DNA from: an archaeon
GTDB lineage: Archaea; Nanobdellota; Nanobdellia; Woesearchaeales; GW2011-AR15
Direction of reading: 5' to 3'
NCBI GenBank assembly: GCA_018671515.1
Contig: JABHHN010000047.1
Span: 1 to 60,266, forward strand
Length of the DNA: 60,266 nt
The notes below the pieces were generated by a model. The model was not told where the DNA came from. It searched no databases and worked only from the letters and a program-made list of their open reading frames with translations. A program made the position numbers and the translations under genes. Positions 9,539-58,900 of this stretch are shown here, piece by piece (within the stretch, counting starts at the first letter, position 1; each line of letters starts with the position of its first letter).

Positions 9539-9548
9539 AAAAAATAAA

Positions 9549-13273: not shown

Positions 13274-13513
13274 GTATAAAATTAATTATAAATATAATTT
13301 ATAAATTTTATTCAAAATTAATTATTAATTCTGAAATGAAACTGAAATTTTCAATTAATTATAATATTAACACACATACTACTGAATATTATGAAAAAAT
13401 ATACACAATTCTCATTCCTATTAGGAAATGCCTGTTGGATTGTAAACTAAATAATTAACAATAAACATTTTATATTATATTTGTTTTCAGATTAAACTAT
13501 ACAGGTGAATAAT

Positions 13514-40326: not shown

Positions 40327-41904
40327 TTACATTGTTAATTCTTCATCGTGAATCAAGAATCTACCTTCATTTAATTGTTTCCAAACATTTGATGAAGGTG
40401 TAATCCAACTATGCATAGAAACTAATGAGTTATCTTCCTGAATTTTTTCCCAATCTTTATTAGTATAATCATGTATTTCAAATTTCCCTTTTGTTTTTTC
40501 ATATATTTCTCTTGGTTTGCCAATTAATCTACTTTCATGACCAAATACATAAAGAGTTGAATTATCACCTTTTTTTTCTCTTTCTTTTGCATGTGACAAA
40601 GCAATATCTACTTTTACAAGTGTTTCAAAAATTTCTCCTAAAAACCTTGTATCTTCAGTAATAGATCCTTCTTTTTTGCTTGTAGAAACAAAATCAGTAA
40701 AAGAAGACCTTAATTTCAATTCTTGACCAAAAAAATTATATTCAGATTTTTTTACTTCTTCTTTTACTTCTTCAATAAAACCTGCAATGGTTTCTATTGC
40801 ACTTAAATAATCTTGTTTAATATTTTTAAATGGAACAGCTATTATTGTCTCATCTCCACCAACTGTTGCAATATAACTATCTTCTCCATCTTTACCATCT
40901 TCACCAAATTTTTCATTTAATCTTTGTCTTATCATTTGATTATAATTTTCAATATGTTCATCTACATCCCTAAGAAGATTTACTAATAAAGCATTTATAT
41001 TTTTTTTATCTGGTCCTTCATCTTTCTTTTTTCTATATTCATTTGATAATTTAAGCATGGTATCTTCCATACTTATCCTATTCATTATATTCAATCCTAT
41101 CGCATCAAACATCATAAGCATGTAATCTCCTTGTTCTGTTAATTTAAGATTGAAAAAAGGTCTTGTAAGATATCCTTCGTGTTTAGAATCTAACATTGAA
41201 AAATCTAAAACATCTGTTATAAAATCAGGATTTATTTCCATATTTGGATTATCTATATACTTTGTAATAAGGTCTTTTTTTCTCTCAAAATTTTTTTTTG
41301 CTTCTTTTCTTGCAGGACTATTCTGAAATGAATCTAATACATTTAAACCATTGTAATAAAAATCAATTGCATGCCTTGTATTTCTTTTATTATCATTTTC
41401 ATTATTATTAAAACCTAATTTTTTTAATTTTTCATTTGATATTCCTTCTTTTAAAGTATAAATAGAGTTTTCATTTTCTCTATATAATTTCATCAATTTA
41501 GGATTGAATCTAGAAACACCATCTTTATTTATTTCTTCAAATATATTTATTATATCTCCATTATAAATAACTGATATATCTTCTTCAATTATATAATCTC
41601 GAATATTTCTTAATTTTAATATATGATTTTTAAACTTTTTTTCATCAAAACCAACAACAGGTTCATCTAAAAAAGCAGCCATGTTTTTTGCAATAGTTGC
41701 CTTTGCACGATTTAATAAATAAAGATAATCTAAATCTGTAGACTCTGAAAAATCTACTTTTGAAAAACCACCAAATACATATGGATGGACAAGGGAAGCA
41801 ATAGAATCTCCTTCAAGTTTAAAATACCAATCTTGAGATCGAGATTTAGTTATGATCTCATTCATTGTAGATTCTACTACTGTTTCTAAATCAATTTTTC
41901 CCAT
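40327..41904 (-). CDS. Protein with a C-terminal GGDEF-like / nucleotide-cyclase palm domain
   Basis: MLMMFD267AIGLNIMN275, YIATVG349GDET, LVKVDIALSHAKEREKKGDN match the D...N, GGDEF and AD.ALY.AK..GRN elements. N-terminal ~250 aa unrecognised. Confidence 0.55.
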   Translation of the reverse strand: MGKIDLETVVESTMNEIITKSRSQDWYFKLEGDSIASLVHPYVFGGFSKVDFSESTDLDYLYLLNRAKATIAKNMAAFLDEPVVGFDEKKFKNHILKLRNIRDYIIEEDISVIYNGDIINIFEEINKDGVSRFNPKLMKLYRENENSIYTLKEGISNEKLKKLGFNNNENDNKRNTRHAIDFYYNGLNVLDSFQNSPARKEAKKNFERKKDLITKYIDNPNMEINPDFITDVLDFSMLDSKHEGYLTRPFFNLKLTEQGDYMLMMFDAIGLNIMNRISMEDTMLKLSNEYRKKKDEGPDKKNINALLVNLLRDVDEHIENYNQMIRQRLNEKFGEDGKDGEDSYIATVGGDETIIAVPFKNIKQDYLSAIETIAGFIEEVKEEVKKSEYNFFGQELKLRSSFTDFVSTSKKEGSITEDTRFLGEIFETLVKVDIALSHAKEREKKGDNSTLYVFGHESRLIGKPREIYEKTKGKFEIHDYTNKDWEKIQEDNSLVSMHSWITPSSNVWKQLNEGRFLIHDEELTM

Positions 41905-42070
41905 TTTTTAATGTATTTTTACTCTTATAAGTTCTAATCTTTTATAAATATTATGTATATTTACCACTTATTAGTAATTATTAGTGAATATTTACAATTA
42001 ATCTCAAAATTAATGAGATTTTTTGAAATTTTAGAGAATTTATAAAAATGTGCATAAATTCCAAAATTGC

Positions 42071-44002
42071 ATGAAATTCGAGTTATCATCAACATTTAAA
42101 CCAACTGGAGACCAACCACAAGCAATTAAAAAGCTCTCTGCAGGATATGGGAAAAACCCTATGCAGACACTTCTTGGTATTACAGGATCAGGGAAGACTT
42201 TTTCCATGGCAAATATTATTCAGAAAGTTCAAAAGCCTACATTAATTTTATCTCATAACAAAACTCTTGCTGCACAATTATACAGTGAATTCTCATCATT
42301 CTTCCCTAAAAACAGGGTCGAATATTTCGTATCATATTTTGATTATTATCAACCTGAAAGCTACCTTCCAACATCTGACACATACATAGAAAAAGATTCT
42401 AAAGTAAATGAAAAAATTGAAAAATTGAGATTAAGAGCAACTGCATCCCTTATGTCAAGAAAAGATGTGATTATTGTTTCATCTGTCTCTTGCATCTATG
42501 GTATTGGAAGCCCTGATAATTTCAAGAATATGAGTTTTGAAATAAAAAAAGGACTAAATATTGATAGATTATCAATTCTAAAAAAACTTATTTCAATACA
42601 ATATGAAAGAAATGATACTGAATTAAAACCTGGAAATTTCAGAGTAAGAGGAGATATAATTGATGTAATTTTAGGATATGAAGAAGATATCTTGCGTATT
42701 GAATTATTTGGTGATGAAATAGAAACAATCAAAATTCTTGATCCTCTTAATATGAATGAAAAGGAAAACATAGATGAAATCACAATATATCCTGCAAGAC
42801 ATTTCGTAGTCCCACAAAATATAATCCAAGGTGCAGTTGATACTATAACTGATGAACTAGAAGAAACACTTCCAAATCTTGAAATGCTTGAAGCACATAG
42901 ATTGAAACAGAGAACAAATCACGATATAGAAATGATACAAGAACTTGGGTATTGTTCTGGAATTGAGAATTATTCAAGACATTTTGATAGTAGACAGGCA
43001 GGGCAACCACCTTTTACATTACTTGATTTCTTTCCAGATGATTTTTTATTTTTCATTGATGAAAGTCATGTTACAATCCCTCAACTTCATGGAATGTACA
43101 AAGGAGATTATTCAAGGAAAAAAAATCTTATTGACCATGGATTCAGACTTCCAAGTGCATTTGACAATAGACCACTTAAATTTGAAGAATCTAAAAAATA
43201 TTTCAAAAACGCAATATTTGTTTCTGCAACACCTGGAGATTGGGAATTAGGTCAATCCAAAAATAATGTTGTTAAACAAATCATCAGACCAACAGGATTA
43301 CTTGATCCTGAAATTACTGTCAAAAAATCAGAAGGACAAATTGATGATTTAATAAATGAAATACAAAAGACTATTGAAAAAAATAATAGAATTCTTGTAA
43401 CTACACTTACAAAAAAAATGGCTGAATATCTCTCTGATTATTTAGCAAAAGCAGGAATCAAAGTAAGATATCTTCATTCTGAAATTGACACACTTGAGCG
43501 AACAGAAATAATAAGACAATTGCGTCTTGGAGAATTTGATGTACTTGTTGGAATAAATCTATTACGTGAAGGAATTGATATACCTGAAGTTGAACTTGTT
43601 ACAATTCTTGATGCTGATAAAGAAGGATTTTTAAGAAATGATAAAAGTCTGATTCAGACTATTGGACGAGCAGCAAGAAATTCAAAAGGTAGAGTCATAA
43701 TGTATGCAGATAAAATGACTGATTCAATGAAACGAGCAATCAAAATTACTCATGACAGAAGAAAAAAACAGATTGCATATAATGAAAAAAATGGAATCAC
43801 TCCACAGACAATCATAAAATCTGTTCCTGAGAAAAAAATTGATATAAAAACTACAAAACATATCCCTAAATCAGAAATACCTAATCATCTAATTGAACTT
43901 GAAACTCAGATGAAGATAGCAGCTGAAAGTCTGGAATTTGAAAAAGCAATTCAGATAAGAGATGTGATGAATGATTTACGAAAAAAACAAGGTGAAAAAT
44001 AA
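42071..44002 (+). CDS. uvrB: Excinuclease ABC subunit B
   Basis: [69 protein letters not shown] domain. Confidence 0.97.
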
Positions 44003-44003
44003 A

Positions 44004-44894
44004 ATGAAATTACAAATTGGATTCATTGGTCTTGGTACTATGGGAAAAGGTATGGTAAAGAATCTTCTAAAAAATGATTATAAAGTTGTTTGCTATAATC
44101 GTACAAAAGAAAAAGGAAACGATATAACACATGAAAATTTTTCAATGGTAGATAATCCTTCTGAAGTATGTCCTGGTTCAGCAATGATTTTTACTTGTGT
44201 CACAAATGATGAAGCGCTAAATGAAATATTATTTGAAAAAAATGGTATTTTTCAAACTTTAAATTCAGATAATATTTTGGTTGATTCTTCTACAACATCT
44301 ATTGAATTTACTCAAAAAATCTATGAAGAATGTGATAAAAGATATGTATCTTTTTTTGATGCACCAATAACTGGAAGTAAATTAGGAGCAGAAAATGGTA
44401 CATTAATGTTCATGTATGGTGGAGACAAAAATCTATTTGAAAAATGTAAAAAAGTGTTTGTTGCGATGGGACAAAGATTTGTTCATTGTGGTAAAAATAC
44501 ATATGGCCAAAGAGCAAAAATTTCTTTGAATCTTGTTCAATCTCTTATCATGCAATCATATTATGAAAGCGTTATTTTAGCATTAAAAAATGGAGTTCCA
44601 TTGAATGCAATATTAGAAATATTTGATAATTCAGGTGCAAAAAATGTAGTTGCTTCTGTTAAGAATCCAAGTCTTAGAAATAGAGATTTCTCTGTTAACT
44701 TTAAATTAGAATTAATGAGAAAAGATCTTCATTTAGCTGATAATGAAATTAAAAAATTAGATTTGAATCTTCCTTTATCAAAACAAATATCTAAAGTATA
44801 TGATAAAGCTTATGATATGGGCCTAGGACAAGAAGATTTCTTAGCAACAATTAAATTATTAGAAAAAGAAAGTGGTAAGGAGATAAGAGAATAG
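44004..44894 (+). CDS. 3-hydroxyisobutyrate/2-hydroxy-3-oxopropionate dehydrogenase family NAD(P)-dependent oxidoreductase
   Basis: IGFIGLGTMG, YNRT, DAPITGS..GAENGTL, catalytic K in AKISLN, F.LELMRKDL; GGTGA SD before ATG 44004. Confidence 0.9.
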   Translation: MKLQIGFIGLGTMGKGMVKNLLKNDYKVVCYNRTKEKGNDITHENFSMVDNPSEVCPGSAMIFTCVTNDEALNEILFEKNGIFQTLNSDNILVDSSTTSIEFTQKIYEECDKRYVSFFDAPITGSKLGAENGTLMFMYGGDKNLFEKCKKVFVAMGQRFVHCGKNTYGQRAKISLNLVQSLIMQSYYESVILALKNGVPLNAILEIFDNSGAKNVVASVKNPSLRNRDFSVNFKLELMRKDLHLADNEIKKLDLNLPLSKQISKVYDKAYDMGLGQEDFLATIKLLEKESGKEIRE

Positions 44895-44994: not shown

Positions 44995-45103
44995 TATGTC
45001 AAAAAATAATAATTAAATAAAAAATAATATTGTAAAAAATTTCTAAATTCTGACATAATACCTCCAAAACTAATTTATATCTATTTTTTATCCAAGTATT
45101 CTA

Positions 45104-47251
45104 ATGTCAAATAAATTCAAAGCTCATATTTCAGTTCTTGGTCTAATAAAAGAATCTCAGATAGGACTTGGACGGCAACTCCTAGCAGATGTAATTACTG
45201 GGGATGAATCTGCAAGAATAAAAAAATTAAGATTAGATAAATTAATTCATTTCTCAACACTTCCACTTTATGATAAGAAAGATGTTTTTGAATTACTTGA
45301 TTTGCTTTTATATAAAAAATTCATAGAATATAAACCAATTCCAAATAATAAATTTATAAAAGTTTTATCAGTCACAGCAAAAGGTGAAGAAGAATTAAAA
45401 AATCCAAGTGAAGAATTAAAACTTACAAAATCATTTGAGGGATATTATTCAACATTTGAAAAAATTACAGATGAAGATAAAATTAAATTTGAAAAATTAG
45501 GAAATATTCTAACTGGACTTTCCGATGAGCAAAAAAAGGCAGTAATCCACAGTAATAAAAATATTCTTTGTATAGCTGGTGCTGGAAGTGGTAAGACGAG
45601 AGTTCTTACAAAAAGAGCATGGTATCTAGCACAATACAAATCAATTCCACAAGACAAAATCTTAGCAGTAACATTTACAAGAAAAGCAAGAAAAGAAATG
45701 CAAAATAGATTAGAAGATATGATTCCTGGAAACCTTATTCAGATTGAAACATTCAATTCATTTTGTGAAAAATATCTAAGAAAATATGAAGATCTGATTT
45801 ATAATAAAAAAGTAAACGTGATGAGTTATAGAAAAAGACTAGAGATATTTGTTAAAATTTTAAAAGAATTAAATCTGACAACTGATGCAGTATTAAATAA
45901 ATATTATTCAAAAAATAAAATTTATTCAAATGATAAAAAAACATTATTTTTTGGTCTAATAAATGACATGTTCTCAGTCTTAGATTATCAAAGAAATAAT
46001 GATATCTCTTTTAATGAATTGATGGATCTTATTTCAGGACATTATGATTATCAAATGGCATCAACAATCAAAGATATAATCAGAAAAATTGTCCAAAAAA
46101 AAGATGAAGATTCATTACGTGACTATACTGATCAGATTGTTCATACTATTGAATTTTTCAAAAAAAATCAAGAAATGATTCCTAGATTCGATCATGTATT
46201 AATTGATGAGTATCAAGATGTAAATTCTCTTCAATTTGAATTTATACAATTATTAAAACCAAATAATTTATTTTCTGTTGGTGACCCAAGACAATCAATT
46301 TATGGATGGCGTGGCTCACGTATTGATTATATTTTAGATTTTGAAAAATTATTTCCTGGTTCGTCAATATTGCAATTAAGCACAAATTATAGATCTAATA
46401 AAGAAATTGTTGAATTATGTAATAATGTAATTGGTGACATGAAATTACCTGATTTAAAATCATTTAAAGAAAATGGTGAAAAAACAATTAATTTTGTAAA
46501 ACACAAAAATGATGATATTGAAAATGCTTTTGTTGCACAGAGTATTTTAAGTCAAAATTGTAAAAGAAATGAAATTTTCGTTCTTGCTAGAACCAATAAA
46601 CAAATAGAAAAATTATCTTTAGAACTTAATAAATTAAAAATAAGATATCTAAAAAGAACAATAGAAGAGAAGAAAACAAATCTTGAACCTACACAAGATG
46701 AAATTACACTCTCAACAATACATGCAATAAAAGGACTTGAAGCTTCAGTTGTTTATTTTATTGGTGCAGGTGCAAAGAATCATCCTTGCAAAGCAAATGA
46801 ACATCCAGTTTTAGAGGCAGTAAAAATCAATGATACATATGATAAATATGCAGAAGAATTAAGATTATTCTATGTTGCAATATCACGTCCTCAGGAAAAA
46901 TTAATTATTAGTTATACTGGAACTCTTGCATCATATGTAAAAAAAGAAATTTTTGATAAATTCAATAAAAATTCTAAAATTAAATTTGATAAATCATCTA
47001 AAAAAGAAGTTGTCTATAAAACTAATAATAGTTCTTCAGGATTATATCATGAATTAAAATCATGGAGATTATCTGAATCACAAAGACTTAACTGTCCACC
47101 ATATTATGTTTTTAATGATAGAACCCTTGATGAATTATGTTCTGTATTACCTTCTAACTTTGAAGAACTACAAGAAGTCAGTGGATTCGGTCCTGTGAAA
47201 GTGAAAAGATTCGGGAAGGATATTGTTAGGATTGTAATGGAGAATTGTTAG
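45104..47251 (+). CDS. UvrD/PcrA-like SF1 helicase with N-terminal RQC-like and C-terminal HRDC domains
   Basis: AGAGSGKT, DEYQD, VGDPRQSIYGWRG, NYRS, STIHAIKGLE, LFYVAISR; N-terminal GLGRQLLADVITG...LDKL...LSVTAKG; C-terminal ELKSWR...PPYYVFNDRTL.EL...GFGP.K..RFG. Confidence 0.88.
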   Translation: MSNKFKAHISVLGLIKESQIGLGRQLLADVITGDESARIKKLRLDKLIHFSTLPLYDKKDVFELLDLLLYKKFIEYKPIPNNKFIKVLSVTAKGEEELKNPSEELKLTKSFEGYYSTFEKITDEDKIKFEKLGNILTGLSDEQKKAVIHSNKNILCIAGAGSGKTRVLTKRAWYLAQYKSIPQDKILAVTFTRKARKEMQNRLEDMIPGNLIQIETFNSFCEKYLRKYEDLIYNKKVNVMSYRKRLEIFVKILKELNLTTDAVLNKYYSKNKIYSNDKKTLFFGLINDMFSVLDYQRNNDISFNELMDLISGHYDYQMASTIKDIIRKIVQKKDEDSLRDYTDQIVHTIEFFKKNQEMIPRFDHVLIDEYQDVNSLQFEFIQLLKPNNLFSVGDPRQSIYGWRGSRIDYILDFEKLFPGSSILQLSTNYRSNKEIVELCNNVIGDMKLPDLKSFKENGEKTINFVKHKNDDIENAFVAQSILSQNCKRNEIFVLARTNKQIEKLSLELNKLKIRYLKRTIEEKKTNLEPTQDEITLSTIHAIKGLEASVVYFIGAGAKNHPCKANEHPVLEAVKINDTYDKYAEELRLFYVAISRPQEKLIISYTGTLASYVKKEIFDKFNKNSKIKFDKSSKKEVVYKTNNSSSGLYHELKSWRLSESQRLNCPPYYVFNDRTLDELCSVLPSNFEELQEVSGFGPVKVKRFGKDIVRIVMENC

Positions 47252-48255
47252 ATTAAGAAATTATTCCAATAATTTATTATTAATTCATCTCCTAAAAAAT
47301 GAATTATTTTATAGAATGATTTATTATCCATTTTTGTTAAAGAAATATTATCTCCTTCTGACAATGAAGATAAATAATCTACTCTTTTCTTTTTTCTAAC
47401 TATTATTGGTGGGTAATTATGATTCATTAATATGATATTTACTAACATCCGTCCTGTACGTCCATTTCCATCTGAAAATGGATGAACTTTTTCAAATTTC
47501 TGATGAAAAATAGATGCTAAAACAAATGGATGCAATTCTTTTTTAATTTTTTTATACCAATTTAAAAGTATATCCATATCTGACTTTACATATTTTCCAG
47601 GAGTTGTATTGAATTTTGATCTAAATACTCTTACATCATGAAATCTATATCCAGTTCTATTATCAATATTTTCTAGTAAATTATCGTGAATTTCAATTAT
47701 TGATTTATGATTGATATTTTTCTTTTTTTCTAATAAATTAAAAAAAACTTTTTTAGTGTTTTGAAGATCATATATTTCTCTTAATGTTTTATTTTTTGGT
47801 GTAATATTTTCATTAAGTAATTTTACTGCTTCCTGTAAATTTATAGTATTCCCTTCAATTGATGTGGTATTATATGCAAATTCAATCAAATAGTTATTGT
47901 ATATTTCTCTGATTGTTAATTCATTTTCTTTTAAAAAATAATTATTGAAATGATATTTTACGGATTCAATTTCTTCAAGTAAATTTTTTTCTAAGTAAAC
48001 ATTAGATTTAATTTTTTGTTCCTTTATTTTATTTAATATATATTCAGAAGTTATGAATTTCTTAATATTTCTATATGCTTTTCTAATTTCCTTTTTATAT
48101 ATTTTTTCAATTGATTCTAATTTTTTTTCTATTTTTTGTGGATCATTTCCTAAATATGCAATATCTTTAGTCACAGATTTATTATTTATTTTCTTTGACA
48201 TCCTTAAATAATAATATGGCTTTCCTGAAATGATTTTTTTGTATATGTATACCAT
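47248..48255 (-). CDS. Fic-domain protein with N-terminal extension
   Basis: HPFSDGNGRTGR catalytic motif and TTSIEGN autoinhibitory motif. Confidence 0.9.
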   Translation of the reverse strand: MVYIYKKIISGKPYYYLRMSKKINNKSVTKDIAYLGNDPQKIEKKLESIEKIYKKEIRKAYRNIKKFITSEYILNKIKEQKIKSNVYLEKNLLEEIESVKYHFNNYFLKENELTIREIYNNYLIEFAYNTTSIEGNTINLQEAVKLLNENITPKNKTLREIYDLQNTKKVFFNLLEKKKNINHKSIIEIHDNLLENIDNRTGYRFHDVRVFRSKFNTTPGKYVKSDMDILLNWYKKIKKELHPFVLASIFHQKFEKVHPFSDGNGRTGRMLVNIILMNHNYPPIIVRKKKRVDYLSSLSEGDNISLTKMDNKSFYKIIHFLGDELIINYWNNFLI

Positions 48256-48370: not shown

Positions 48371-49840
48371 TTATCGTTTAATAAAATCTTGATAAATCTG
48401 TTCAAATGAATATTTCTGTAGATTAGAAACACCATTAAATATCCTCTTGGATGTGTTAGGCAATAATCTAATTATTTTATCGCTTATATTTTCACCTTCT
48501 TCAAGTTTTACTGCATATCCACTTGCAATTGCATTATCCATGTTCTTTACTTCATTATACCCACCAGGTTCAACTACAATTGATGGAAGTCCAAATACTG
48601 CACCTACATCTGGTTGTTCCCCAGGCATACAAATCATGACATGAGCATCATCCATCATCCTATATGACTGCATAATTTTTTTCTGTCTATTACCTTTACC
48701 TTCAGGAATATGTACTATTTGGATACCATCCATATTTAGATCATATTCTTCACTCACACTATTTCCTGATACTAAATCCAACATGTAACTTTGAGTTGCA
48801 AATATACTCAAATTAATACGACCATCATCTACATATGGTTGCATCTGACCAATATACTCTTTCATAGCTTCAGGATTCATTCCTGATCCTGATGGCATAA
48901 ATGTAACTTTGATAGGTGTTCCTTTAAATGTTCCAGTCTCATTACTATAATTTTGTATAATTTTTTCTATTTCTTTTTTTCTTCTTTGTCTTGATTCTTG
49001 TATATCAAAAGCATCTGCCAAAAGTGTTTTATTAGGTAAAGGTGTTCCATCATACCTAACCCCTCCTTCTTTAGACAAATAAGTAAAAAGCTCTTCTTTA
49101 TTTACTGGAAATTTTTTAAACCTTTCATTTTTTCCATAATCGTGATTCCCTTCAAAAGTAGATGAGAATATGACAAAATCAAAATTATTTTTCAACCTTA
49201 TTAATCCTGGTTTAGGAATTGTATCAGGTACATAAAGTCCTTTTTTTACTTTTTTATTCTGACCTGTTGAAATCAACATATTTTTTAATGCAATCATAGG
49301 TCTTTCATGAGCACCTAATACAGTTACAGGCAACCCGATTGCAGACATATAAGCTATTTTTGCTGCATAACTTCCTTCAATTAATATTTGCTCACCCATA
49401 TTTTGTATTTCTGACCATAACTTACCATCTTCTGCTCTTCCAGATAAAAATTTCAAGACATCATTTATTGACTTTACTTTTGAATCTTTTGATTTTTTAT
49501 GTGGTCCTCTTATCATCTTTTCTGAAATTGCATCTGTAATTGGATTCTGCCTATCACTAAATTCGGCAAAGACTAAAGTATTTTCATCTCCATTTTCTTC
49601 TAAAACTGCTTCAAGACCATCAGCTAAAGAATAAGCTGATTTAAGGTTTCCCAATCCAGTATCTATTGTTGGTATTGATACTATATTTGGTAATTCATCT
49701 AAATTTTTTTCACCAGAAATATATTTTTCAAGAAGGGAAACAGTCCTTTCTCCAGCATACAATATTCTATCTTCTTCTATTGCAAGCTTGTAATTTTCAA
49801 GGATTTTTTTAGTAAGAATCCTATTTACTAAGTTAGTCAT
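48371..49840 (-). CDS. Divergent GT-B glycosyltransferase (GT28 MurG/UgtP/MGDG-synthase-like)
   Basis: N-terminal DTGLGNLKSAYSL (cf. G.GH..AA.AL); C-terminal HVMICMPG...GLPSIVVEPGGYNEVKN..AIASG.A. Confidence 0.55.
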   Translation of the reverse strand: MTNLVNRILTKKILENYKLAIEEDRILYAGERTVSLLEKYISGEKNLDELPNIVSIPTIDTGLGNLKSAYSLADGLEAVLEENGDENTLVFAEFSDRQNPITDAISEKMIRGPHKKSKDSKVKSINDVLKFLSGRAEDGKLWSEIQNMGEQILIEGSYAAKIAYMSAIGLPVTVLGAHERPMIALKNMLISTGQNKKVKKGLYVPDTIPKPGLIRLKNNFDFVIFSSTFEGNHDYGKNERFKKFPVNKEELFTYLSKEGGVRYDGTPLPNKTLLADAFDIQESRQRRKKEIEKIIQNYSNETGTFKGTPIKVTFMPSGSGMNPEAMKEYIGQMQPYVDDGRINLSIFATQSYMLDLVSGNSVSEEYDLNMDGIQIVHIPEGKGNRQKKIMQSYRMMDDAHVMICMPGEQPDVGAVFGLPSIVVEPGGYNEVKNMDNAIASGYAVKLEEGENISDKIIRLLPNTSKRIFNGVSNLQKYSFEQIYQDFIKR

Positions 49841-49945: not shown

Positions 49946-50800
49946 TTATGCTTGTTCTAATTTAGGTTGATACGCATGTGCAATATATGCACCATTTGCT
50001 AAAATTGTTTTTGAAAACCCACCAATTTCTTGCATTTTTTCATTTTTTGTATCTTTTTGAAAATATGTATTAAAATGATCATGTAAATTACCTAATATTG
50101 TATGTTGTCTCCCATCTCCTGCTCCTACATAATCTGCAACTGCTAATGCCATAATATATCTTTCTCTTAATTCGCTTTTCGAACCAAAAAAGTCCTCTAC
50201 ATCCCTTGTATTAAAAAAATCAGGTTTTATTCTATCTTTTAACCAGTCTCTTGAATTTCTTTTCTCTACATATTCTTGTGTAAATATTGCTAATGCTGCT
50301 GCTGTAGCATATCTTGCAATTCTATTTGGTAAGACTTCTCCTTTTTGCCTTTGCCTCATATAACTATTTTTAGGATCTTCTTGTGCAAAATTATCAATAC
50401 AATTGTAAAATTTAGCCATATCATCTACATCAACACCTATAGCTACTCCAAGAGATATTGTTGCTGCCATTAAATCTTCATCATATGAAACTTTATGTGC
50501 ATTTGCATAAGAAGATAGTTTATTTCCATTATCTCTTACATGATTAAATTTTTCATATAAAAAAGTAAATAACTCGTCATCTATTTCTCCAAGTATACCT
50601 GTATTTTGATTAAATTCTGGAAGTACACTTTTAGCAAACATATACCCCATAGCCATTGTTGCTGCAACTTCATCTATACTCTCTACAGGAATTTCATTAT
50701 TTAATAAACCTGCAATTCTTTTTGATTCTTCAAAAAGTTCCAAAACTTTTGGTTCTAATGTTTTTATTTCATCTTCTAAAGGAGATATAGATGTATTCAT
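49946..50800 (-). CDS. Hypothetical all-helical protein
   Basis: 284-aa ATG ORF; no family recognised. Confidence 0.6.
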   Translation of the reverse strand: MNTSISPLEDEIKTLEPKVLELFEESKRIAGLLNNEIPVESIDEVAATMAMGYMFAKSVLPEFNQNTGILGEIDDELFTFLYEKFNHVRDNGNKLSSYANAHKVSYDEDLMAATISLGVAIGVDVDDMAKFYNCIDNFAQEDPKNSYMRQRQKGEVLPNRIARYATAAALAIFTQEYVEKRNSRDWLKDRIKPDFFNTRDVEDFFGSKSELRERYIMALAVADYVGAGDGRQHTILGNLHDHFNTYFQKDTKNEKMQEIGGFSKTILANGAYIAHAYQPKLEQA

Positions 50801-50938: not shown

Positions 50939-53749
50939 ATGCAAAATAATATCGTTATTAAAGGTGCTCGTGAACATAATTTAAAGAACATAAATATAAC
51001 TTTACCTAGAAATAAATTCATTGTAATAACTGGATTATCAGGTTCTGGTAAATCATCACTTGCTTTTGACACAATTTATGCAGAAGGTCAGAGAAGATAT
51101 GTTGAATCATTATCAGCTTATGCAAGACAGTTTCTTGAACTTATGGAAAAACCAGATGTTGATTCTATTGAAGGACTTTCCCCTGCAATATCAATTGAGC
51201 AAAAAACAACTTCAAGAAATCCAAGATCAACTGTTGGAACTGTTACAGAAATATATGATTATTTTAGACTTTTATTTGCAAGGATTGGAATTCCTCATTG
51301 TCCTAAATGTGATAAACAAATAAAACCACAGACATCTCAAGATATTGTAAAAAGTATAATTGAAAAGTTTGATGGAGAAAAAATAGTAGTTCTTGCACCA
51401 TTAGTTAGAGCAAAAAAAGGAACTTATGAAAAATTATACGAAGAATACCATAATAAAGGATATGCAAGGATGTGGACTAATGAAAATATTCATGACATAA
51501 AAGAAATTCCAACTCTTGAAAGATATAAAAAACATGATATCTCAGTTGTAATTGATAGATTAAAAGTGTCTGATAAAGAAATCAGCAGATTAACTGAATC
51601 TATTGAAAATGCACTAAAAGAATCCGAAGAAAAACTTGTACAAGTCTTAATAAAAGATACTGATAAAATTTCTATGTATTCTGCATCATATAGTTGTCCA
51701 GATCATCCTGAAATTAATATGGGTAATCTTGAACCAAGAATGTTTTCTTTCAATTCACCACATGGTGCATGTCCTGAATGCCATGGAATTGGTACAAAAA
51801 TGGAAATTGATCCTGATTTAGTAATTCCTGACAAATCTAAATCCATTTTTGAAGGAGCTATTGAAATCTATGGAAAAATGGATTTAACATGGAGATCACA
51901 ACAACTAAAAATAGTTGGGCGACGTCATGGATTTGAACTACACGAAGCTATTGAAGATTTTACAGAAAACCAATTAAATATTGTATTATATGGTTCTGAT
52001 GAACCTCTTCGTGGTGTGTGGAGTAATGGAGCAAATATGAATTTCGAAAATGGTTTTGAAGGTGTCATTCCACAAACTCTAAGATTATACAAACAAACTG
52101 ATTCAGAATATAGACGTCAAGTCATTGAAAAATTCATGAGAGAAAGATCTTGTGAAACTTGTAAAGGACTTAGATTAAAACCAATTACACTCTCTGTAAG
52201 AGTTTATGGGAAAAACATAACTGATGTCACTTCAATGTCAATAAGAAAAGCATTACTTTGGTTTTCTATGTTAAAATTAAATGAAACTGAAACTCAGATT
52301 GCAAGACAGGTTATGAAAGAAATCATTGAAAGATTAAGTTTCTTAAATTCCGTTGGTGTTGAATATCTTACACTTGATAGACGTGCTGGAACATTATCTG
52401 GTGGAGAAGCACAAAGAATAAGACTTGCAACTCAAATTGGATCAAATCTTACAGGAGTATTATATATTTTAGATGAACCATCAATTGGATTACATCAAAG
52501 AGATAATGATAAACTAATTGCAACATTAAAAAGACTAAGAGATCTTGGAAATACAATAATTGTTGTTGAACATGATGAAGAAACCATGGCAAAAGCAGAT
52601 CATATTGTTGATTTAGGTCCTGCTGCAGGTGTTCATGGTGGAGAAATTGTTGCACAAGGTAATATAAAAGATATAATGAAAAGCAAAAAGTCTCTTACAG
52701 GACAATATCTTTCTGGAAAATTAAAAATTGACACTCCAAAAGAAAGAAGAACTTCTGACAAATTCATTAATATTTACGGAGCAGAAGAAAATAATCTTAA
52801 AAATATTGATGTAAAAATACCACAAAATATACTAACATTAATTACAGGAGTATCTGGTTCAGGTAAATCTACTTTGATAAATGATACTTTATTTCAGACA
52901 CTTCACACTAGATTATACAGATCTCGTGAAAAACCAGGAAAATGTAAAGATATAACTTCTGACATCCCAATAGATAATGCAATTATTCTTGACCAGACAC
53001 CTATTGGTAAAACACCAAGAAGTAATCCTGCTACTTACACTAAATTATTTGATCCAATAAGACAACTATTTACCATGACTGAAGATTCAAAACTATTAGG
53101 ATTCAAAGCAGGACGATTTTCATTCAATGTTCCTGGAGGACGATGTGAAAATTGTAAAGGAGATGGATTGATTAAAATTGAAATGAATTTCCTTCCTGAT
53201 GTATATGTAAAATGTGAAGATTGCAAAGGTAAAAGGTATAATGCTCAGACATTAAAAATAAAGTACAAAGGAAAAAATATTGCAGATGTCCTTGATATGT
53301 CAATTGAAGAAGGATCTAAATTCTTTGAAAATATTCCTTCAATTAATAGAAAATTAAAAACACTTAATGATGTTGGATTAGGATATATGAAACTTGGACA
53401 ATCATCAACAACTCTTTCAGGTGGAGAAGCTCAAAGAATAAAAATTACACGTGAATTATCAAAAAAACAAAGTGGGCAGACTGTATATATTCTTGATGAA
53501 CCAACTACAGGTCTTCATTTTGAAGATATCAAAAAACTTCTTAATGTATTAAATAGATTAGTTGATAAAAATAATACAGTAATTCTAATTGAACATAATC
53601 TTGATGTTATAAAATCTGCAGATCATATAATCGATCTTGGACCAGAAGGTGGTGACGGTGGTGGAACAATAATCGCAGAAGGTTCGCCAAGTGATATTGC
53701 AAATGTAAAAGAAAGTTATACTGGGCAATATTTAAAGAAAGTTTTGTAG
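50939..53749 (+). CDS. uvrA: Excinuclease ABC subunit A
   Basis: GAREHNLKN, two GSGKSS/T plus LSGGEAQR sets, Zn-finger CPECHG...CETCKG, CENCKG...CEDCKG. Confidence 0.97.
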   Translation: MQNNIVIKGAREHNLKNINITLPRNKFIVITGLSGSGKSSLAFDTIYAEGQRRYVESLSAYARQFLELMEKPDVDSIEGLSPAISIEQKTTSRNPRSTVGTVTEIYDYFRLLFARIGIPHCPKCDKQIKPQTSQDIVKSIIEKFDGEKIVVLAPLVRAKKGTYEKLYEEYHNKGYARMWTNENIHDIKEIPTLERYKKHDISVVIDRLKVSDKEISRLTESIENALKESEEKLVQVLIKDTDKISMYSASYSCPDHPEINMGNLEPRMFSFNSPHGACPECHGIGTKMEIDPDLVIPDKSKSIFEGAIEIYGKMDLTWRSQQLKIVGRRHGFELHEAIEDFTENQLNIVLYGSDEPLRGVWSNGANMNFENGFEGVIPQTLRLYKQTDSEYRRQVIEKFMRERSCETCKGLRLKPITLSVRVYGKNITDVTSMSIRKALLWFSMLKLNETETQIARQVMKEIIERLSFLNSVGVEYLTLDRRAGTLSGGEAQRIRLATQIGSNLTGVLYILDEPSIGLHQRDNDKLIATLKRLRDLGNTIIVVEHDEETMAKADHIVDLGPAAGVHGGEIVAQGNIKDIMKSKKSLTGQYLSGKLKIDTPKERRTSDKFINIYGAEENNLKNIDVKIPQNILTLITGVSGSGKSTLINDTLFQTLHTRLYRSREKPGKCKDITSDIPIDNAIILDQTPIGKTPRSNPATYTKLFDPIRQLFTMTEDSKLLGFKAGRFSFNVPGGRCENCKGDGLIKIEMNFLPDVYVKCEDCKGKRYNAQTLKIKYKGKNIADVLDMSIEEGSKFFENIPSINRKLKTLNDVGLGYMKLGQSSTTLSGGEAQRIKITRELSKKQSGQTVYILDEPTTGLHFEDIKKLLNVLNRLVDKNNTVILIEHNLDVIKSADHIIDLGPEGGDGGGTIIAEGSPSDIANVKESYTGQYLKKVL

Positions 53750-53788: not shown

Positions 53789-54316
53789 ATGAACACACAT
53801 AAACTAAAATTTACATTACTTCAACAAGAAATCATTAATTTATTATCAATTAAAACTGGTACAAAATTAAACCAGAGAAGAATTTCTATCCTTCTAAAAG
53901 TTTCTCCTACTGCTGTATCAAAATCATTAATAAAATTAAAAAATCATAAAATAATTCAATTAGAAAAAGATAAATTTTCCAAAATTCTTTCAATATCTCT
54001 AAATTTTGAGAATCCCAAAGTTCAATATTTAAAAAGAATTGAAAATATAAAAATGATATATGAATCAGAATTAGCAGAATTTTTATATGAATCATTTCCG
54101 GGTTCAAGAATAATACTTTTTGGAAGCTATTCAAGAGGAGAAGACACTATAACTTCAGATGTTGATATTGCTATAGTTAAAAGCAAAGAAAAAAATATAA
54201 ATTTAATAAAATATGAAGAAATGTTAGAAAGAAAAATAAATTTAAATTTTTATAAAGATTTAAACAAACTAGACATAAATCTTAAAGCTAATATTGAAAG
54301 AGGAATTGATTTATGA
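53789..54316 (+). CDS. HTH + MNT-type nucleotidyltransferase (putative antitoxin)
   Basis: N-terminal HTH (NQRRISILLKVSPTAVSK); LFGSYSRGEDTITSDVDIAI. Confidence 0.85.
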   Translation: MNTHKLKFTLLQQEIINLLSIKTGTKLNQRRISILLKVSPTAVSKSLIKLKNHKIIQLEKDKFSKILSISLNFENPKVQYLKRIENIKMIYESELAEFLYESFPGSRIILFGSYSRGEDTITSDVDIAIVKSKEKNINLIKYEEMLERKINLNFYKDLNKLDINLKANIERGIDL

Positions 54317-54753
54317 TTCATATAAAAAAATTTGAAGATTATGTTAATGAAGGTATAATTAGAAAAGTAACATCTGATACTTTTAGATCAAAATCACTTA
54401 TTATTGATTCAAATAAAAGAAAAATATTTTTAGATGAAATAGAAAACAAAATAGGTGTTAAAGATGAAAATTCGAATTATTTTATTGAAAATTGTTATGA
54501 TATAATCATTCAATTATTAAGATCAAAACTTATTTTAAATGGGTATAAAGCATCAGGTCAAGGAGCTCATATTGCAGAAGTATCATATATGAAAAAGATA
54601 GGTTTTTTAGATGAAGATATGTATTTTATGAATGAATTAAGACATTTTAGAAATGGAATTAAATATTATGGCAAAAGATTTGATAAGGAATATGCTAATA
54701 AGACAATTAAATTCATGAAAAAATGTTCCAAATTTCTAGAAAATCAAAAATAA
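54313..54753 (+). CDS. HEPN-like partner protein (putative toxin)
   Basis: ATGA-coupled to the MNT gene; CYD.I..L...GY...GQGAH, ELRHFRNGIKYYG segments typical of archaeal MNT-associated HEPN-like proteins. Confidence 0.6.
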   Translation: MIHIKKFEDYVNEGIIRKVTSDTFRSKSLIIDSNKRKIFLDEIENKIGVKDENSNYFIENCYDIIIQLLRSKLILNGYKASGQGAHIAEVSYMKKIGFLDEDMYFMNELRHFRNGIKYYGKRFDKEYANKTIKFMKKCSKFLENQK

Positions 54754-55995: not shown

Positions 55996-58900
55996 ATGAA
56001 ATACAACAAACCAATTCTTGGAATTTTTATGACAATGCTTTTATTAATCTCTGCATGTGGTGGTGATGGAACACCTGAAGAAATAATTGAAGAAAATGCT
56101 GCTAAAATAATTTCTACCTCTAATAAATTAATATCTATTGATGTAGGTACCGGATTTCAATTTCAAAGTCCAAGACCTGATTCAGAACAATATTGTAAAA
56201 ATTTTAGAGATAAATTAGAGATTATAGAAAATGAAAATATTAAAGATAATATGAATACATTCTATAATGATTTAGAAATACTTGATGCTTTTGTTGAAAA
56301 TAGTCCATATAATTCTATTGCTGCAAGATTTGGATCAATGGGTCTATTATCAAACGTCCCATTAGATGATACTGGTTATAAAATCATGCGTGATTTAATA
56401 ACTAATATGAAAAATGTAAATCCAGATTATCTTAAATTACAAGAAAATGGCAAGAGTGTTGGATTAGTTGTATGTGGTGATTCTAGAGTAAATTGTGTTA
56501 ATAATTTTATTCATAATGGTGAACAATGGATAATTTCTGAACAAAGAGCAATAGGTTCTCCAGGTGTTCTTTTCCCAGCTGAAGTAGATATTTCAATTAT
56601 CATGACTCATGGAAATACTTGTGCTGATACAGGTGGTTGTGGTGCACAAACAGCGTATGGTCAATTACGAGATAATGGTGCACAATTTTTAATAGATCAT
56701 GGTGTTCCTGACGTCACAGTAGACTGGCTTAGTGCTAATTTAGTAACTGATAACCCCTTTGATCAATCTGTACATTCAGCTATTATTTCTTCTAATGTAA
56801 ATAGTTTAGTACATGGTGGCGACAAAATTTCATTTTTCACATTTAATGAACATGGTACAAATAATATAATAATAAAAGGTGCTGCTTTTGCCGGAGATTT
56901 TGATAGAACAATACCTGGAGTAAATCAGTTACATCAAAATACAATAGTTGCTATGTTTAATACTGTTATTGATGCTACTGATGATATCAAAGCAATGGAT
57001 GCAATGGATGAATTATTTCGTTTATTAGAATCAGGTGAAGTATTATTAGATGAAGGTAGTAATATTTTAAAAACAAAAGATGGAAGAAAACTTATAAGTT
57101 TTTTAACACCTAAATATGATAGTTCAGTAGCTGGAAAAATGACTATTCATACTGTTGAATCATTAAAATCAGACCAAGCTTTTCTAAATGGAGTAAAACA
57201 ATTTAAAAATTTATTAATTGGTGAAGAAAAAATTGGAAGTATTATTAATTCTTTTAGACTTACACAAATGGGAGAACGTGTAAATTTTTTTAATAATGGA
57301 CTTGCTGTTATAAATAAAATGGCTGTTGCAGGACAAGCACCACTTCAAAACATTATTTATGCTACAAAAACTGGAAGACCTATTGGAGGTTCAGGAGGTA
57401 TTTTTGGTTCATACGCGGGAGAAAGTGGAAATTTTTTTAAAATAAGTATAAATTTAAATGGTTTAATACAATCAAATAGCGAAGGTTCTTATGCTTTGAA
57501 AACTGCTAGAATAGATACTATTAGAGCAGGTATACGTCAAGATCTTTATAACTATCTTAGTGCACATAATAAATGGTCAGATGTAACTTATCTTTTATCA
57601 GAAGATGCTGAAATATTAGGACTTTTAGTTGAAGAACATTTTAGCAATAAAAATATAATTGATTTTATAAATAATAAAGATAATTTTTACACCGTCATCG
57701 GACTTGTAGATGAACAAACTGGATTAATAAAAAACGCAAAAATAGTCCAAGTTATAGCTGATGGAGAAGATGCTCAAAAAATAGCCAAACAAGTTGGTGG
57801 AATTGTAAAAATTATTGAAGGTACTGAATTAGTTGAAAGTGAAATAAAATTAAATGGAATTGCCAAATTATTTGAATATTTCCCTGATGGAACTGTTAAA
57901 GCAATATATAGAATAAGAACATCACCTCTAGGAAAAGGTGTTTCTAACATTTTATCTATAATTTCAAAAAGCAAAATTGGAAATTTTGGAAAAGGTGTTT
58001 TTAATGGTTTTATAAAATTACAACCACTCTGGGATACTATGTTTGCACTACATTTAGATCATATATATACCGAAGGGAAAGATTATATTCATTTATATGA
58101 TGAATCTAAAATTTGGAATGCACAAAATATAAACCTTGAATTAGAAGTAAATAATGAAAATAATAGAAAATTCCCTAAATATTATAGTTCAGATGAATAT
58201 ATGGATATTTTAAAAAATTCTCCAAATGGTGCCCTTGATCCATACATGTATAATGGAAAATTTCATCAAGCAATTTCAAATGACATCTTATTTGAATCAT
58301 ATGTAAATGGTGCTTATAGTTTACTTTCAAGACTTGACTTAACTAATTTTCAAATTACCATAGAGAATTATTGGTCTTGGGTAGGATGTATAGTTCCAAA
58401 TAGTGAATGTTTAAAAATTGAAGGAAATACTTTTGATAGTTGTGTTCAAAGTTGTATGGATACTCTTATTTCTAAAGGACCTACAGTATTATCAAAAGAA
58501 ATTGTATTGAGTTATATTGATGGAAGTATATATAATAAAAATGAAGGTGAAAAACCCTATGAAAGAAGAAAATTTGCAACACCTTTAATTTTTTTACCTA
58601 CTGATTATGAACATAATAAATTCTATGAAATCTCATTACCTAGTGATGATTCTGATTTTATAAATGAAAAACAAAGAGTTAGAAATATATTTGCAAGTGG
58701 TGATGAGGCTGCACCTATGATTGTTTTTAACAAAATGAATGGAGAGTATGTAATGCCTTGTACTGATAGTCAAATGATTGTTCCAATAAGAGCAGTAAAT
58801 CCAGCTATAAACTTTGTTGATAATGAAGGTAAAAAAAATGCAAATGGAGTAATTTATTATATATCTGTTTTTTCTAGTGAAAATGATGACAGAATTCATT

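What the first reader, a model, noticed from the sequence alone, without database searches (positions are those of the whole stretch)
45104..47251. Chimeric helicase: RecQ accessory domains (RQC, HRDC) wrapped around a 2B-less UvrD core
The first ~100 aa resemble the RecQ RQC winged helix, which normally follows an SF2 core. Here it precedes an SF1A motor. Only ~35 aa separate VLARTN from STIHAIKGLE, so the regulatory 2B subdomain (normally >150 aa) is missing; 2B removal is known to activate Rep monomers. HRDC caps the C-terminus. It lies between uvrB and uvrA, suggesting a compact, constitutively active NER/fork helicase.
Basis: partly seen in the sequence, partly recalled or inferred. Interest (0 to 1): 0.65.

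Follow-up and report, generated by a model that had tools for sequence, protein, structure and literature searches.

The report
UvrD-type helicase with RecQ accessory domains
This archaeal gene encodes a real, conserved DNA helicase that joins a UvrD-type motor lacking its usual regulatory 2B subdomain to two DNA-binding domains normally found on RecQ helicases; it is an undescribed variant of known helicase types, and its link to UV excision repair is weak.

Summary
ORF 45104-47251 (+, 715 aa) has four parts. There is an N-terminal RQC winged helix, supported by Pfam in 20 of 20 orthologues and by fold matches to RecQ, WRN and BLM RQC domains. There is a complete SF1A UvrD/PcrA motor. Only 41-43 residues separate motif IV from motif V, against 186-223 in canonical relatives, and the AlphaFold model shows a 14-residue loop where 2B should be. 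A C-terminal HRDC completes the protein.

It is not a one-off chimera. It belongs to a monophyletic family found in about 22% of 301 sampled genomes of its phylum (hits named Woesearchaeota/Nanoarchaeota). In this assembly it is the only gene carrying a UvrD, RQC or HRDC domain.

Two of the three features have precedents. E. coli helicase IV also lacks 2B, and mycobacterial UvrD2 is an SF1 motor with an HRDC.

The excision-repair (NER) reading is weak:
- The position between uvrB and uvrA is not conserved in 21 other loci.
- 36 of 67 helicase-bearing genomes lack uvrA.
- No uvrC was found in this assembly.
- Engineered 2B deletions of Rep and UvrD1 gain unwinding but lose their in vivo functions.

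My best reading is a stand-alone, structure-targeted 3'-5' helicase acting as a general RecQ/UvrD stand-in. It is a new variant of a known kind, of moderate interest.

The parts
45104..47251 (+). Whole gene: 715-aa RQC / SF1A(delta-2B) / HRDC helicase
   Evidence: Intact ORF. Orthologues at 40-60% identity share the same Pfam architecture. It is the only PF00580 hit in the 1.88-Mb assembly.
45131..45430 (+). N-terminal RQC-type winged helix (aa 10-109): helices 7-17, 24-32, 37-41 and 58-70, beta-hairpin wing 74-79/82-90, helix 92-99
   Evidence: Pfam RQC at 35.7-39 bits against a cut-off of 23. Fold search gives RecQ, WRN and BLM RQC domains at rmsd 2.3-2.7 A. T91 is nearly invariant and G94 invariant in the conserved LTxKG stretch.
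45431..45505 (+). Linker (aa 110-134) with lower model confidence, ending in a helix that leads into the Q motif
   Evidence: pLDDT is 72-80 in the full model and below 50 for residues 110-118 in the domain model.
45506..46357 (+). SF1A subdomains 1A/1B (aa 135-418): Q motif Q143, Walker A AGAGSGKT 158-165, motif Ia TFTRKA, motif II DEYQD 368-372, motif III VGDPRQSIYGWRG 392-404
   Evidence: Pfam UvrD-helicase 139-418 at E 3.5e-57. These residues are invariant in 62 orthologues. PcrA, UvrD and Rep are the top fold matches.
46358..46939 (+). SF1A subdomain 2A (aa 419-612): motif IV RTN 496-498, motif V HAIKGLE 540-546, motif VI R595
   Evidence: Pfam UvrD_C and alignment to PcrA 555-619. One continuous alignment to the helicase IV profile covers residues 138-612.
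46658..46699 (+). Site of the missing 2B subdomain: a 14-residue loop (aa 519-532, TIEEKKTNLEPTQD) between strands 514-518 and 533-538
   Evidence: AlphaFold secondary structure. Motif IV-V spacing is 41-43 aa in 62 of 62 orthologues, against 186-223 in canonical relatives and 26 in E. coli helicase IV.
46940..47038 (+). Cys-free linker (aa 613-645), predicted disordered over aa 625-643, between the motor and the HRDC
   Evidence: pLDDT is below 50 for residues 625-643. The translation shows no cysteine here, so there is no UvrD2-type tetracysteine module. Linker length (aa 606-645) varies from 21 to 64 aa among orthologues.
47039..47236 (+). C-terminal HRDC domain (aa 646-711)
   Evidence: Pfam HRDC at E 7.6e-18. 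It matches the RecQ profile C-terminus at E 3.5e-20 and RecQ HRDC structures 2ma1 and 1wud. It is the only HRDC in the assembly.
45074..45080 (+). TATA-box-like TTTATAT centred about 27 nt before the ATG; possibly the gene's own promoter for a leaderless mRNA (weak inference in a 26% GC genome)
   Evidence: Read directly from the sequence. A 209-nt gap and a T-run separate the gene from the upstream dehydrogenase gene.
42050..44002 (+). Context only: uvrB, 1.1 kb upstream, with a dehydrogenase gene in between
   Evidence: Pfam UvrB_inter, UvrB and UVR. uvrB is not near the orthologue in 21 other loci.
50939..53749 (+). Context only: uvrA, 3.7 kb downstream, with three minus-strand genes in between
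   Evidence: Pfam UvrA_inter and UvrA_DNA-bind. This linkage is not conserved.

Best explanation
The gene encodes a stand-alone DNA repair and recombination helicase of a DPANN-type archaeon (closest database hits are named Woesearchaeota/Nanoarchaeota).

Shown: it is an SF1A UvrD/PcrA-type ATPase with every catalytic motif intact. It naturally lacks the 2B subdomain. It carries an N-terminal RQC winged helix and a C-terminal HRDC. It belongs to a monophyletic family with no conserved gene neighbour.

Inferred: the motor translocates 3'-5' on single-stranded DNA, as its relatives do. Without 2B it has neither the autoinhibitory gate nor the 2B-mediated dimerisation and partner control of UvrD and Rep, so a monomer should be able to unwind. 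Instead of 2B, the flexibly tethered RQC winged helix, with its beta-hairpin wing, and the HRDC bind duplex, junction and single-stranded DNA. These domains would direct the motor to forks, D-loops, G-quadruplexes or gapped DNA, as they do in RecQ.

Canonical RecQ is almost absent from this phylum, and this is the only UvrD-family gene in the genome. The protein therefore probably serves as a general RecQ/UvrD stand-in for recombination-intermediate and stalled-fork processing. It may also help excision repair where UvrAB(C) is present, but it is not dedicated to that pathway.
For: Architecture.

Absence of 2B is rigidly conserved at 41-43 aa in 62 of 62 orthologues, against 186-223 aa in canonical relatives.

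The catalytic motifs are invariant.

The family is monophyletic (SH-aLRT 100) and separate from UvrD/Rep, from helicase IV, and from the 2B-bearing UvrD-likes of the same phylum.

It is the only UvrD, RQC or HRDC gene in the assembly. The RecQ zinc-binding domain occurs in only 6 of 301 phylum genomes, none of which carries this helicase.

The orthologue is present in 67 of 301 genomes, and more than half of those lack uvrA.

No gene neighbour is conserved within 8 kb in 22 loci.

The RQC module also sits on other non-RecQ motors, including an XPD/DinG-like protein that also carries HRDC. This shows it is a portable DNA-targeting module.

Published work shows that 2B deletion unmasks helicase activity in Rep and UvrD1 (PMC6158625, PMC13646824).
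Against: There are no biochemical or expression data. Polarity, monomer activity and substrate preference are inferred from relatives.

I could not inspect model coordinates or inter-domain confidence, so where the RQC sits relative to the vacated 2B site is unknown.

The mutual exclusion with RecQ rests on only 6 RecQ-bearing genomes and is not significant.

A profile of the N-terminal domain ranks a MarR-type regulator (E 3.7e-5) just ahead of WRN RQC (E 2e-3) in the PDB sequence search. Part of the signal is therefore generic winged-helix similarity.

The HRDC is missing in some orthologues, including a same-family genome, so it is not essential to the family's function.

The positive association with uvrA (odds ratio 6.6) leaves some NER role open.

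Unbridled delta-2B helicases are harmful in bacteria (PMC13646824). This family must therefore be restrained in some unseen way.
Confidence: 0.5

Rival explanations
1. Dedicated excision-repair helicase. It would be the archaeon's UvrD equivalent, acting after UvrABC incision to release the damaged oligonucleotide and turn over UvrC, and would be constitutively active because 2B is gone.
For: It lies between uvrB and uvrA in this window. It is the only UvrD-family gene in the genome. Presence correlates with uvrA across 301 genomes: 31 have both, odds ratio 6.6, p 4e-9. Within the window's own taxonomic family, 3 genomes have both genes and 6 have neither.
Against: The adjacency is unique to this window among 22 loci. 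In relatives the helicase gene and uvrA are 17-92 kb apart or on different contigs. 36 of 67 helicase genomes lack uvrA, and 27 of 58 uvrA genomes lack the helicase; 24 of those 27 gave no UvrD-like match at all (E <= 1e-10). The statistic is not corrected for phylogeny, and the carriers of both genes are the largest genomes (1.8-1.9 Mb against 1.1-1.5 Mb). No full uvrC was found in this assembly. UvrD1-delta2B cannot support NER in vivo (PMC13646824). The Tudor domain seen on the two bacterial UvrD/PcrA proteins scanned is absent. The gene probably has its own promoter and is separated from uvrB by an unrelated dehydrogenase gene.
Confidence: 0.2
2. ATP-driven translocase rather than an unwinding enzyme. 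Like mycobacterial UvrD2, its essential job would be a motor function, such as stripping recombinase filaments or other proteins from DNA, that does not need duplex unwinding. RQC and HRDC would serve only as tethers.
For: UvrD2 is the closest published SF1 + HRDC precedent. It is essential although its helicase activity and its HRDC are dispensable (PMC3378886). UvrD and PcrA relatives are known anti-recombinases (general knowledge). The HRDC is dispensable in some orthologues.
Against: Rep-delta2B is specifically defective in displacing proteins from DNA (PMC6158625), so a 2B-less motor is a poor candidate for a protein remover. RQC domains in RecQ, WRN and BLM engage the duplex end and assist strand separation, and the fold match is to those domains.
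Confidence: 0.15
3. Component of an anti-virus defence island. It would be a Gabija-like (GajB) helicase, or a helicase working with the adjacent Fic-domain gene.
For: PADLOC GajB models hit the motor (best E 3e-59). The convergent neighbour at 47248-48255 matches the defence candidates PDC-S04 (E 1e-38) and SoFic (E 6e-27). A Fic gene also neighbours the orthologue in one other genome (L117).
Against: The GajB hits cover only the generic SF1A motor regions. No other neighbour tested gave a PADLOC hit, so no GajA was seen. A Fic neighbour occurs in only 2 of 22 loci, and no neighbour is conserved. GajB retains a 2B domain (PMC10781630). No viral contig carries the full architecture.
Confidence: 0.05
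4. Helicase IV / HelD-type factor that acts on RNA polymerase (recycling of stalled complexes).
For: Like E. coli helicase IV it lacks 2B, with motif IV-V spacing of 26 aa in helicase IV. The helicase IV profile aligns in one continuous stretch.
Against: It scores 169 bits against the curated cut-off of 543 for helicase IV. The HelR match is only E 6e-5. The N-terminal domain is an RQC winged helix, not a HelD-type N-terminal domain. In the tree the family does not group with E. coli HelD.
Confidence: 0.03

Closest known systems
PcrA / UvrD / Rep (bacterial SF1A 3'-5' helicases)
   Same: These are the best sequence and fold matches for the motor: PcrA 1pjr at phmmer E 3e-46 and Foldseek E 8e-29. 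All motifs from Q to VI are present, as are subdomains 1A, 1B and 2A.
   Different: There is no 2B subdomain: 43 aa where UvrD has 204 and Rep 207. There is no C-terminal Tudor domain. The protein has an added N-terminal RQC and C-terminal HRDC. It falls far below the NCBIfam equivalog cut-offs: 238 against 911 for PcrA and 204 against 1144 for UvrD. It forms a separate clade.
Mycobacterial UvrD2 (SF1 ATPase + tetracysteine module + HRDC)
   Same: It is the only published SF1 UvrD-like motor with a C-terminal HRDC. In UvrD2 the HRDC is dispensable (PMC3378886), and some orthologues of the present family lack it.
   Different: UvrD2 is defined by a CxxC-(14)-CxxC module and is described as restricted to Actinomycetales (PMC3378886). 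Here the linker has no cysteine. This protein also has an N-terminal RQC and lacks 2B. I did not obtain a UvrD2 sequence, so its 2B status was not compared.
E. coli helicase IV (HelD)
   Same: It is a naturally 2B-less UvrD-family motor with motif IV-V spacing of 26 aa. It is 27% identical over 512 aligned columns at E 2e-33. It also carries an N-terminal extension, of about 196 aa.
   Different: The N-terminal extension is unrelated, and helicase IV has no HRDC. The score is below the family cut-off (169 against 543). The two are not sisters in the tree, so the loss of 2B is probably independent.
RecQ family (SF2) helicases: RecQ, WRN, BLM
   Same: They have the same two accessory domains. 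The RQC winged helix matches at rmsd 2.3-2.7 A, and the HRDC matches the C-terminus of the RecQ profile at E 3.5e-20. The likely shared logic is structure-specific targeting of a 3'-5' motor.
   Different: The motor is SF1A, not the SF2 DEAH type, and there is no RecQ zinc-binding domain. The domain order also differs. RQC precedes the motor here, instead of lying between the zinc domain and the HRDC.
Engineered Rep-delta2B and UvrD1-delta2B
   Same: They have the same topology as this natural protein, with 2A closed by a short linker in place of 2B.
   Different: These are laboratory deletions that gain unwinding but lose in vivo function and slow growth (PMC6158625, PMC13646824). The natural family is conserved and carries extra DNA-binding domains that may compensate.

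Membership tests
SF1A UvrD/PcrA/Rep helicases (broad family) | Conserved motifs Q, I, Ia, II, III, IV, V and VI, and the 1A/2A RecA-like folds | tested here: met
   Pfam UvrD-helicase at E 3.5e-57 and UvrD_C at E 6e-23. The motif residues are invariant in 62 orthologues. Foldseek hits PcrA, UvrD and Rep at E 1e-24 to 8e-29.
SF1A UvrD/PcrA/Rep helicases (broad family) | 2B subdomain inserted in 2A (about 150-200 aa) | tested here: not met
   There are 43 aa between motifs IV and V, against 204 in UvrD and 207 in Rep. The AlphaFold model shows only a 14-aa loop.
UvrD / PcrA / Rep orthologues (NCBIfam equivalogs) | Score above the curated equivalog cut-off | tested here: not met
   PcrA 238 against 911, UvrD 204 against 1144, Rep 168 against 951.
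UvrD / PcrA orthologues | C-terminal Tudor domain, the RNA-polymerase and partner interaction module | tested here: not met
   PF21196 is not found in this protein. It is found in the two bacterial relatives scanned.
RecQ family | SF2 DEAH-type helicase core with the RecQ zinc-binding domain | tested here: not met
   The core is SF1A. There is no PF16124 hit anywhere in the assembly. The RecQ profile matches only the C-terminal HRDC region, at 72 bits against a cut-off of 640.
RecQ family | RQC winged helix and HRDC accessory domains | tested here: met
   RQC at 35.7-39 bits, above the cut-off of 23, in 20 of 20 orthologues, with fold matches to RecQ, WRN and BLM. HRDC at E 7.6e-18.
Actinobacterial UvrD2 | CxxC-(14)-CxxC tetracysteine module between the ATPase and the HRDC | tested here: not met
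   The linker aa 606-645 contains no cysteine. The definition is taken from PMC3378886.
Actinobacterial UvrD2 | SF1 UvrD-like ATPase followed by a C-terminal HRDC | tested here: met
Helicase IV / HelD | Score above the curated cut-off, and the HelD-type N-terminal domain | tested here: not met
   169 bits against 543. The N-terminus is RQC. It does not group with E. coli HelD in the tree.
Helicase IV / HelD | UvrD-like motor without a 2B insert | tested here: met
   Spacing is 26 aa in E. coli HelD and 43 aa here.
Gabija GajB | Encoded next to the OLD-family nuclease GajA | tested here: not met
   The neighbours give no PADLOC hit except the Fic gene. No neighbour is conserved in 22 loci.
UvrABC excision-repair system (as its helicase component) | Conserved co-occurrence or linkage with uvrA, uvrB and uvrC | tested here: inconclusive
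   Odds ratio 6.6, but 36 of 67 carriers lack uvrA. The linkage is unique to this window. uvrC was not found in the assembly. Physical interaction cannot be tested here.

The most novel reading that the evidence does not exclude
In this family the N-terminal RQC winged helix has taken over the duplex-engaging and strand-separating role of the lost 2B subdomain. That would create a monomer-active SF1A helicase controlled by targeting rather than by autoinhibition. This protein would then be the functional RecQ of archaea that lack RecQ. In other words, an SF1 motor would have displaced the RecQ motor non-orthologously while the RecQ DNA-recognition modules were kept.
Probability: 0.3. Interest if true: 0.65.

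Novelty: new variant of a known kind. Interest (0 to 1): 0.45.

Why it matters
How UvrD-family helicases are switched on is still an active question: 2B as autoinhibitor, dimerisation, or partner proteins. Recent work shows that engineered 2B deletions are hyperactive in vitro but non-functional or harmful in vivo (PMC6158625, PMC13646824).

This is a conserved natural family that dispenses with 2B and carries RecQ-type DNA-recognition domains. It is a ready-made test of whether targeting domains can replace 2B-based control.

It also shows that RQC and HRDC are portable modules shared between SF1 and SF2 motors. And it identifies the probable main repair and recombination helicase in part of a little-studied, RecQ-poor archaeal phylum with reduced genomes.

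It does not change our understanding of nucleotide excision repair.

Tried and rejected
- The genome-contig scan used the generic Walker A and motif III patterns. It returned almost only bacterial UvrD/PcrA and one Woesearchaeota locus, so it was useless for a taxonomic survey of the architecture. I used the genome search on the phylum instead.
- I could not test distribution outside the phylum. No handle was available for other archaeal phyla. Named database hits are all Woesearchaeota, Nanoarchaeota or Nanobdellota.
- A word-index search restricted to residues 1-135 found only 5 close relatives. The exhaustive representative search was more useful.
- The listing of cluster members timed out once and then gave little taxonomy.
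- The UvrD2 domain paper (PMC2648833) is not held. I took UvrD2 features from PMC3378886 and did not test whether UvrD2 has a 2B subdomain.
- I expected GajB to be a 2B-less precedent, but the Gabija structure paper describes a 2B domain, so I dropped that claim.
- Model coordinates and inter-domain error estimates are not exposed, so I could not test whether the RQC docks at the vacated 2B site.
- The neighbourhood analysis looked for any conserved partner, such as a nuclease, topoisomerase or SSB, and found none.
- The viral contig scan found no copy of the full architecture.
Full report
**What is there**

The ORF at 45104-47251 on the + strand is intact and encodes 715 aa. Pfam finds four domains in this order:
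- RQC, aa 10-108, 35.7 bits against a cut-off of 23, E 8e-9
- UvrD-helicase, aa 139-418, E 3.5e-57
- UvrD_C, best stretch aa 520-605, E 6e-23
- HRDC, aa 646-711, E 7.6e-18

The window has 23-30% GC. Its closest protein relatives come from genomes labelled Woesearchaeota, Nanoarchaeota or Nanobdellota, which are DPANN archaea. The window is a whole contig (C11) of a 1.88-Mb assembly that is 89.6% complete.

**The N-terminal domain is RQC-like**

All 20 orthologous N-termini tested match Pfam RQC, best E 3e-15, and no other family recurs. An AlphaFold model of residues 1-135 (pLDDT 84) is a winged helix with a beta-hairpin wing at 74-79/82-90.

Its best structural matches are RecQ-family RQC domains:
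- C. sakazakii RecQ 4tmu: E 5e-4, rmsd 2.3 A over 94 columns
- E. coli RecQ 1oyw: rmsd 2.4 A
- WRN RQC 3aaf: TM 0.74, rmsd 2.6 A
- BLM RQC

MarR-type regulators also appear in that list, but at rmsd 10-13 A.

One caveat applies. In a profile-versus-PDB sequence search, a MarR-family protein (E 3.7e-5) ranks just above WRN RQC (E 2e-3). Part of the signal is therefore generic winged-helix similarity.

**2B is missing**

PcrA aligns to the query in three blocks: query 135-259 to PcrA 8-135, 320-513 to 171-376, and 530-604 to 555-619. The roughly 178 residues of PcrA 2B therefore correspond to about 17 residues here.

The full-length model (pLDDT 88.6, pTM 0.76) goes from strand 514-518 through a 14-residue loop to strand 533-538. 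PcrA, UvrD and Rep are its best fold matches.

| Protein(s) | Motif IV N498 to motif V H540 (aa) |
|---|---|
| This family, all 62 orthologues | 41-43 |
| E. coli UvrD | 204 |
| E. coli Rep | 207 |
| Two bacterial PcrA/UvrD | 204-223 |
| Eight other UvrD-like genes of the same phylum | 186-204 |
| E. coli helicase IV | 26 |

The catalytic residues are invariant across the 62 orthologues: Q143, GxGKT, DExQD, the VGDPRQ motif, RTN and R595. The motor should therefore be an active ATPase.

**It is a family, not an accident**

Hundreds of proteins share the same Pfam architecture at 40-60% identity. In a sample of 301 genomes of the phylum, 67 (22%) have an orthologue.

In a maximum-likelihood tree the family is one clade (SH-aLRT 100, stem length 0.92). 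It is separate from E. coli UvrD and Rep plus two bacterial PcrA/UvrD, from E. coli helicase IV, and from the 2B-bearing UvrD-likes of the same phylum. Deeper relations are unresolved.

Some orthologues lack the HRDC, including one in the window's own taxonomic family with a 603-aa frame. The constant core of the family is therefore RQC plus the 2B-less motor.

**Genome context**

uvrB (42050-44002, +) is followed by a 3-hydroxyisobutyrate-dehydrogenase-like gene that overlaps its end. A 209-nt gap then contains a T-run and a TATA-like TTTATAT about 27 nt before the helicase ATG.

Downstream lie a convergent Fic-domain gene, then two unannotatable minus-strand genes, then uvrA (50939-53749, +). 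So "between uvrB and uvrA" is literally true, but it is not an operon.

In 21 other loci, covering 8 kb on each side, nothing but the helicase is shared by more than four loci. None of them contains uvrA or uvrB. Where both genes are on one contig in relatives, they are 17, 41 and 92 kb apart.

**Co-occurrence**

| | uvrA present | uvrA absent |
|---|---|---|
| Helicase present | 31 | 36 |
| Helicase absent | 27 | 207 |

This gives an odds ratio of 6.6 and a Fisher p of 4e-9. In the window's own family, the three genomes of 1.8-1.9 Mb have both genes and the six of 1.1-1.5 Mb have neither.

Of the 27 uvrA genomes without the helicase, only 3 have any other UvrD-like gene. UvrA(B) in this phylum therefore often does without a UvrD-type helicase.

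A full uvrC was not found in this assembly. The only hit is a 51-aa GIY-YIG fragment at 59742-59897.

This gene is the only carrier of a UvrD, RQC or HRDC domain in the assembly. The RecQ zinc-binding domain occurs in just 6 of 301 genomes, none of which has this helicase. That pattern is suggestive of complementarity but has too little statistical power to show it.

**Precedents**

- *Natural 2B-less motors exist.* E. coli helicase IV aligns at 27% identity (E 2e-33) and has no spacer at all at the 2B site. Several UvrD-like genes on viral contigs cover query residues 141-602 in only about 432 aa.
- *SF1 plus HRDC exists in mycobacterial UvrD2.* That protein is defined by a tetracysteine module and is described as restricted to Actinomycetales (PMC3378886). 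The linker here has no cysteine.
- *GajB is not a precedent.* It retains 2B (PMC10781630).
- *No paper describes this architecture.* None in the searchable library describes RQC in front of an SF1 motor, or this three-part architecture.
- *RQC sits on several other non-RecQ proteins.* An exhaustive search with the N-terminal domain shows this: an XPD/DinG-like helicase with RQC + HRDC, a DEAD_2 helicase with HTH_40 + RQC, a Ham1-RQC-UvrD fusion, RQC + phosphoribosyltransferase proteins, and RQC + ABC ATPase. RQC and HRDC are therefore mobile DNA-targeting modules.

**Mechanism**

The anatomy is shown. The function is inferred.

Rep-delta2B is hyperactive for unwinding. However, it cannot displace proteins or act as an accessory replicative helicase in vivo (PMC6158625). 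UvrD1-delta2B gains Ku-independent helicase activity, yet it cannot support NER, is dominant-negative, and slows growth (PMC13646824).

By analogy, this natural 2B-less motor should unwind without dimerisation or a 2B-binding partner. The same analogy argues against a UvrD-like role in NER, and against a role as a protein remover.

The most economical reading has the flexibly tethered RQC (linker pLDDT 72-80) and the HRDC (linker pLDDT below 50) supplying duplex and junction recognition. Control would then come from where the motor is loaded, as in RecQ. I put this at about 0.5. The NER-dedicated reading gets 0.2, a non-unwinding translocase 0.15, a defence helicase 0.05, and a HelD-like factor 0.03.

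**Verdict**

This is a new variant of known kinds (SF1A helicase; 2B-less as in helicase IV; HRDC as in UvrD2) with an undescribed N-terminal RQC, and it is conserved as a family. Interest is moderate.

Noticed in passing
window 47248-48255 (-): A Fic/DOC-domain gene lies convergent with the helicase and overlaps its last 4 nt. It matches the PADLOC defence candidates PDC-S04 (E 1e-38) and SoFic (E 6e-27). A Fic gene also neighbours the helicase orthologue in one other genome (L117, 5752-6753).
   Followed up: partly
window 59742-59897 (+): A 51-aa ORF holds only the first part of a GIY-YIG nuclease domain (Pfam E 1e-6; it matches positions 8-37 of the uvrC profile). No full-length uvrC was detected anywhere in the 89.6%-complete assembly, although uvrA and uvrB are present.
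   Followed up: partly
window 43971-44894 (+): A 3-hydroxyisobutyrate/6-phosphogluconate-dehydrogenase-like gene overlaps the end of uvrB by 32 nt. It is probably co-transcribed with uvrB, which is an odd partner for a repair gene.
   Followed up: no
window 55996-59670 (+), 40327-41904 (-), 48371-49840 (-), 49946-50800 (-): Four sizeable ORFs (1224, 525, 489 and 284 aa) have no Pfam hit. The three shorter ones were also scanned with PADLOC and gave no hit.
   Followed up: no
P0166, P0186, P0175, P0159/P0163/P0168, P0154: RQC winged helices closely related to this one sit on other non-RecQ proteins: an XPD/DinG-like helicase with RQC + HRDC, a DEAD_2 helicase with HTH_40 + RQC, a Ham1 (ITPase)-RQC-UvrD fusion, proteins of about 910 aa with RQC + phosphoribosyltransferase, and RQC + ABC ATPase.
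   Followed up: partly
L117 (G229:C12), 816-14146: Three UvrD-family genes lie within 14 kb: the RQC-type orthologue at 7992-10064 and two genes of roughly 920-935 aa, together with a Fic gene. This may be a helicase-rich island.
   Followed up: no
L154, L164, L165, L170 and similar viral contigs: UvrD-like genes on viral contigs cover query residues 141-602 in only about 432 aa. These appear to be naturally 2B-less SF1A motors in viruses.
   Followed up: no
window 53789-54316 (+) and 54313-54753 (+): A nucleotidyltransferase-domain gene (NTP_transf_2 / Polbeta) is followed by an overlapping small ORF just after uvrA. The layout is typical of minimal nucleotidyltransferase toxin-antitoxin pairs.
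   Followed up: no
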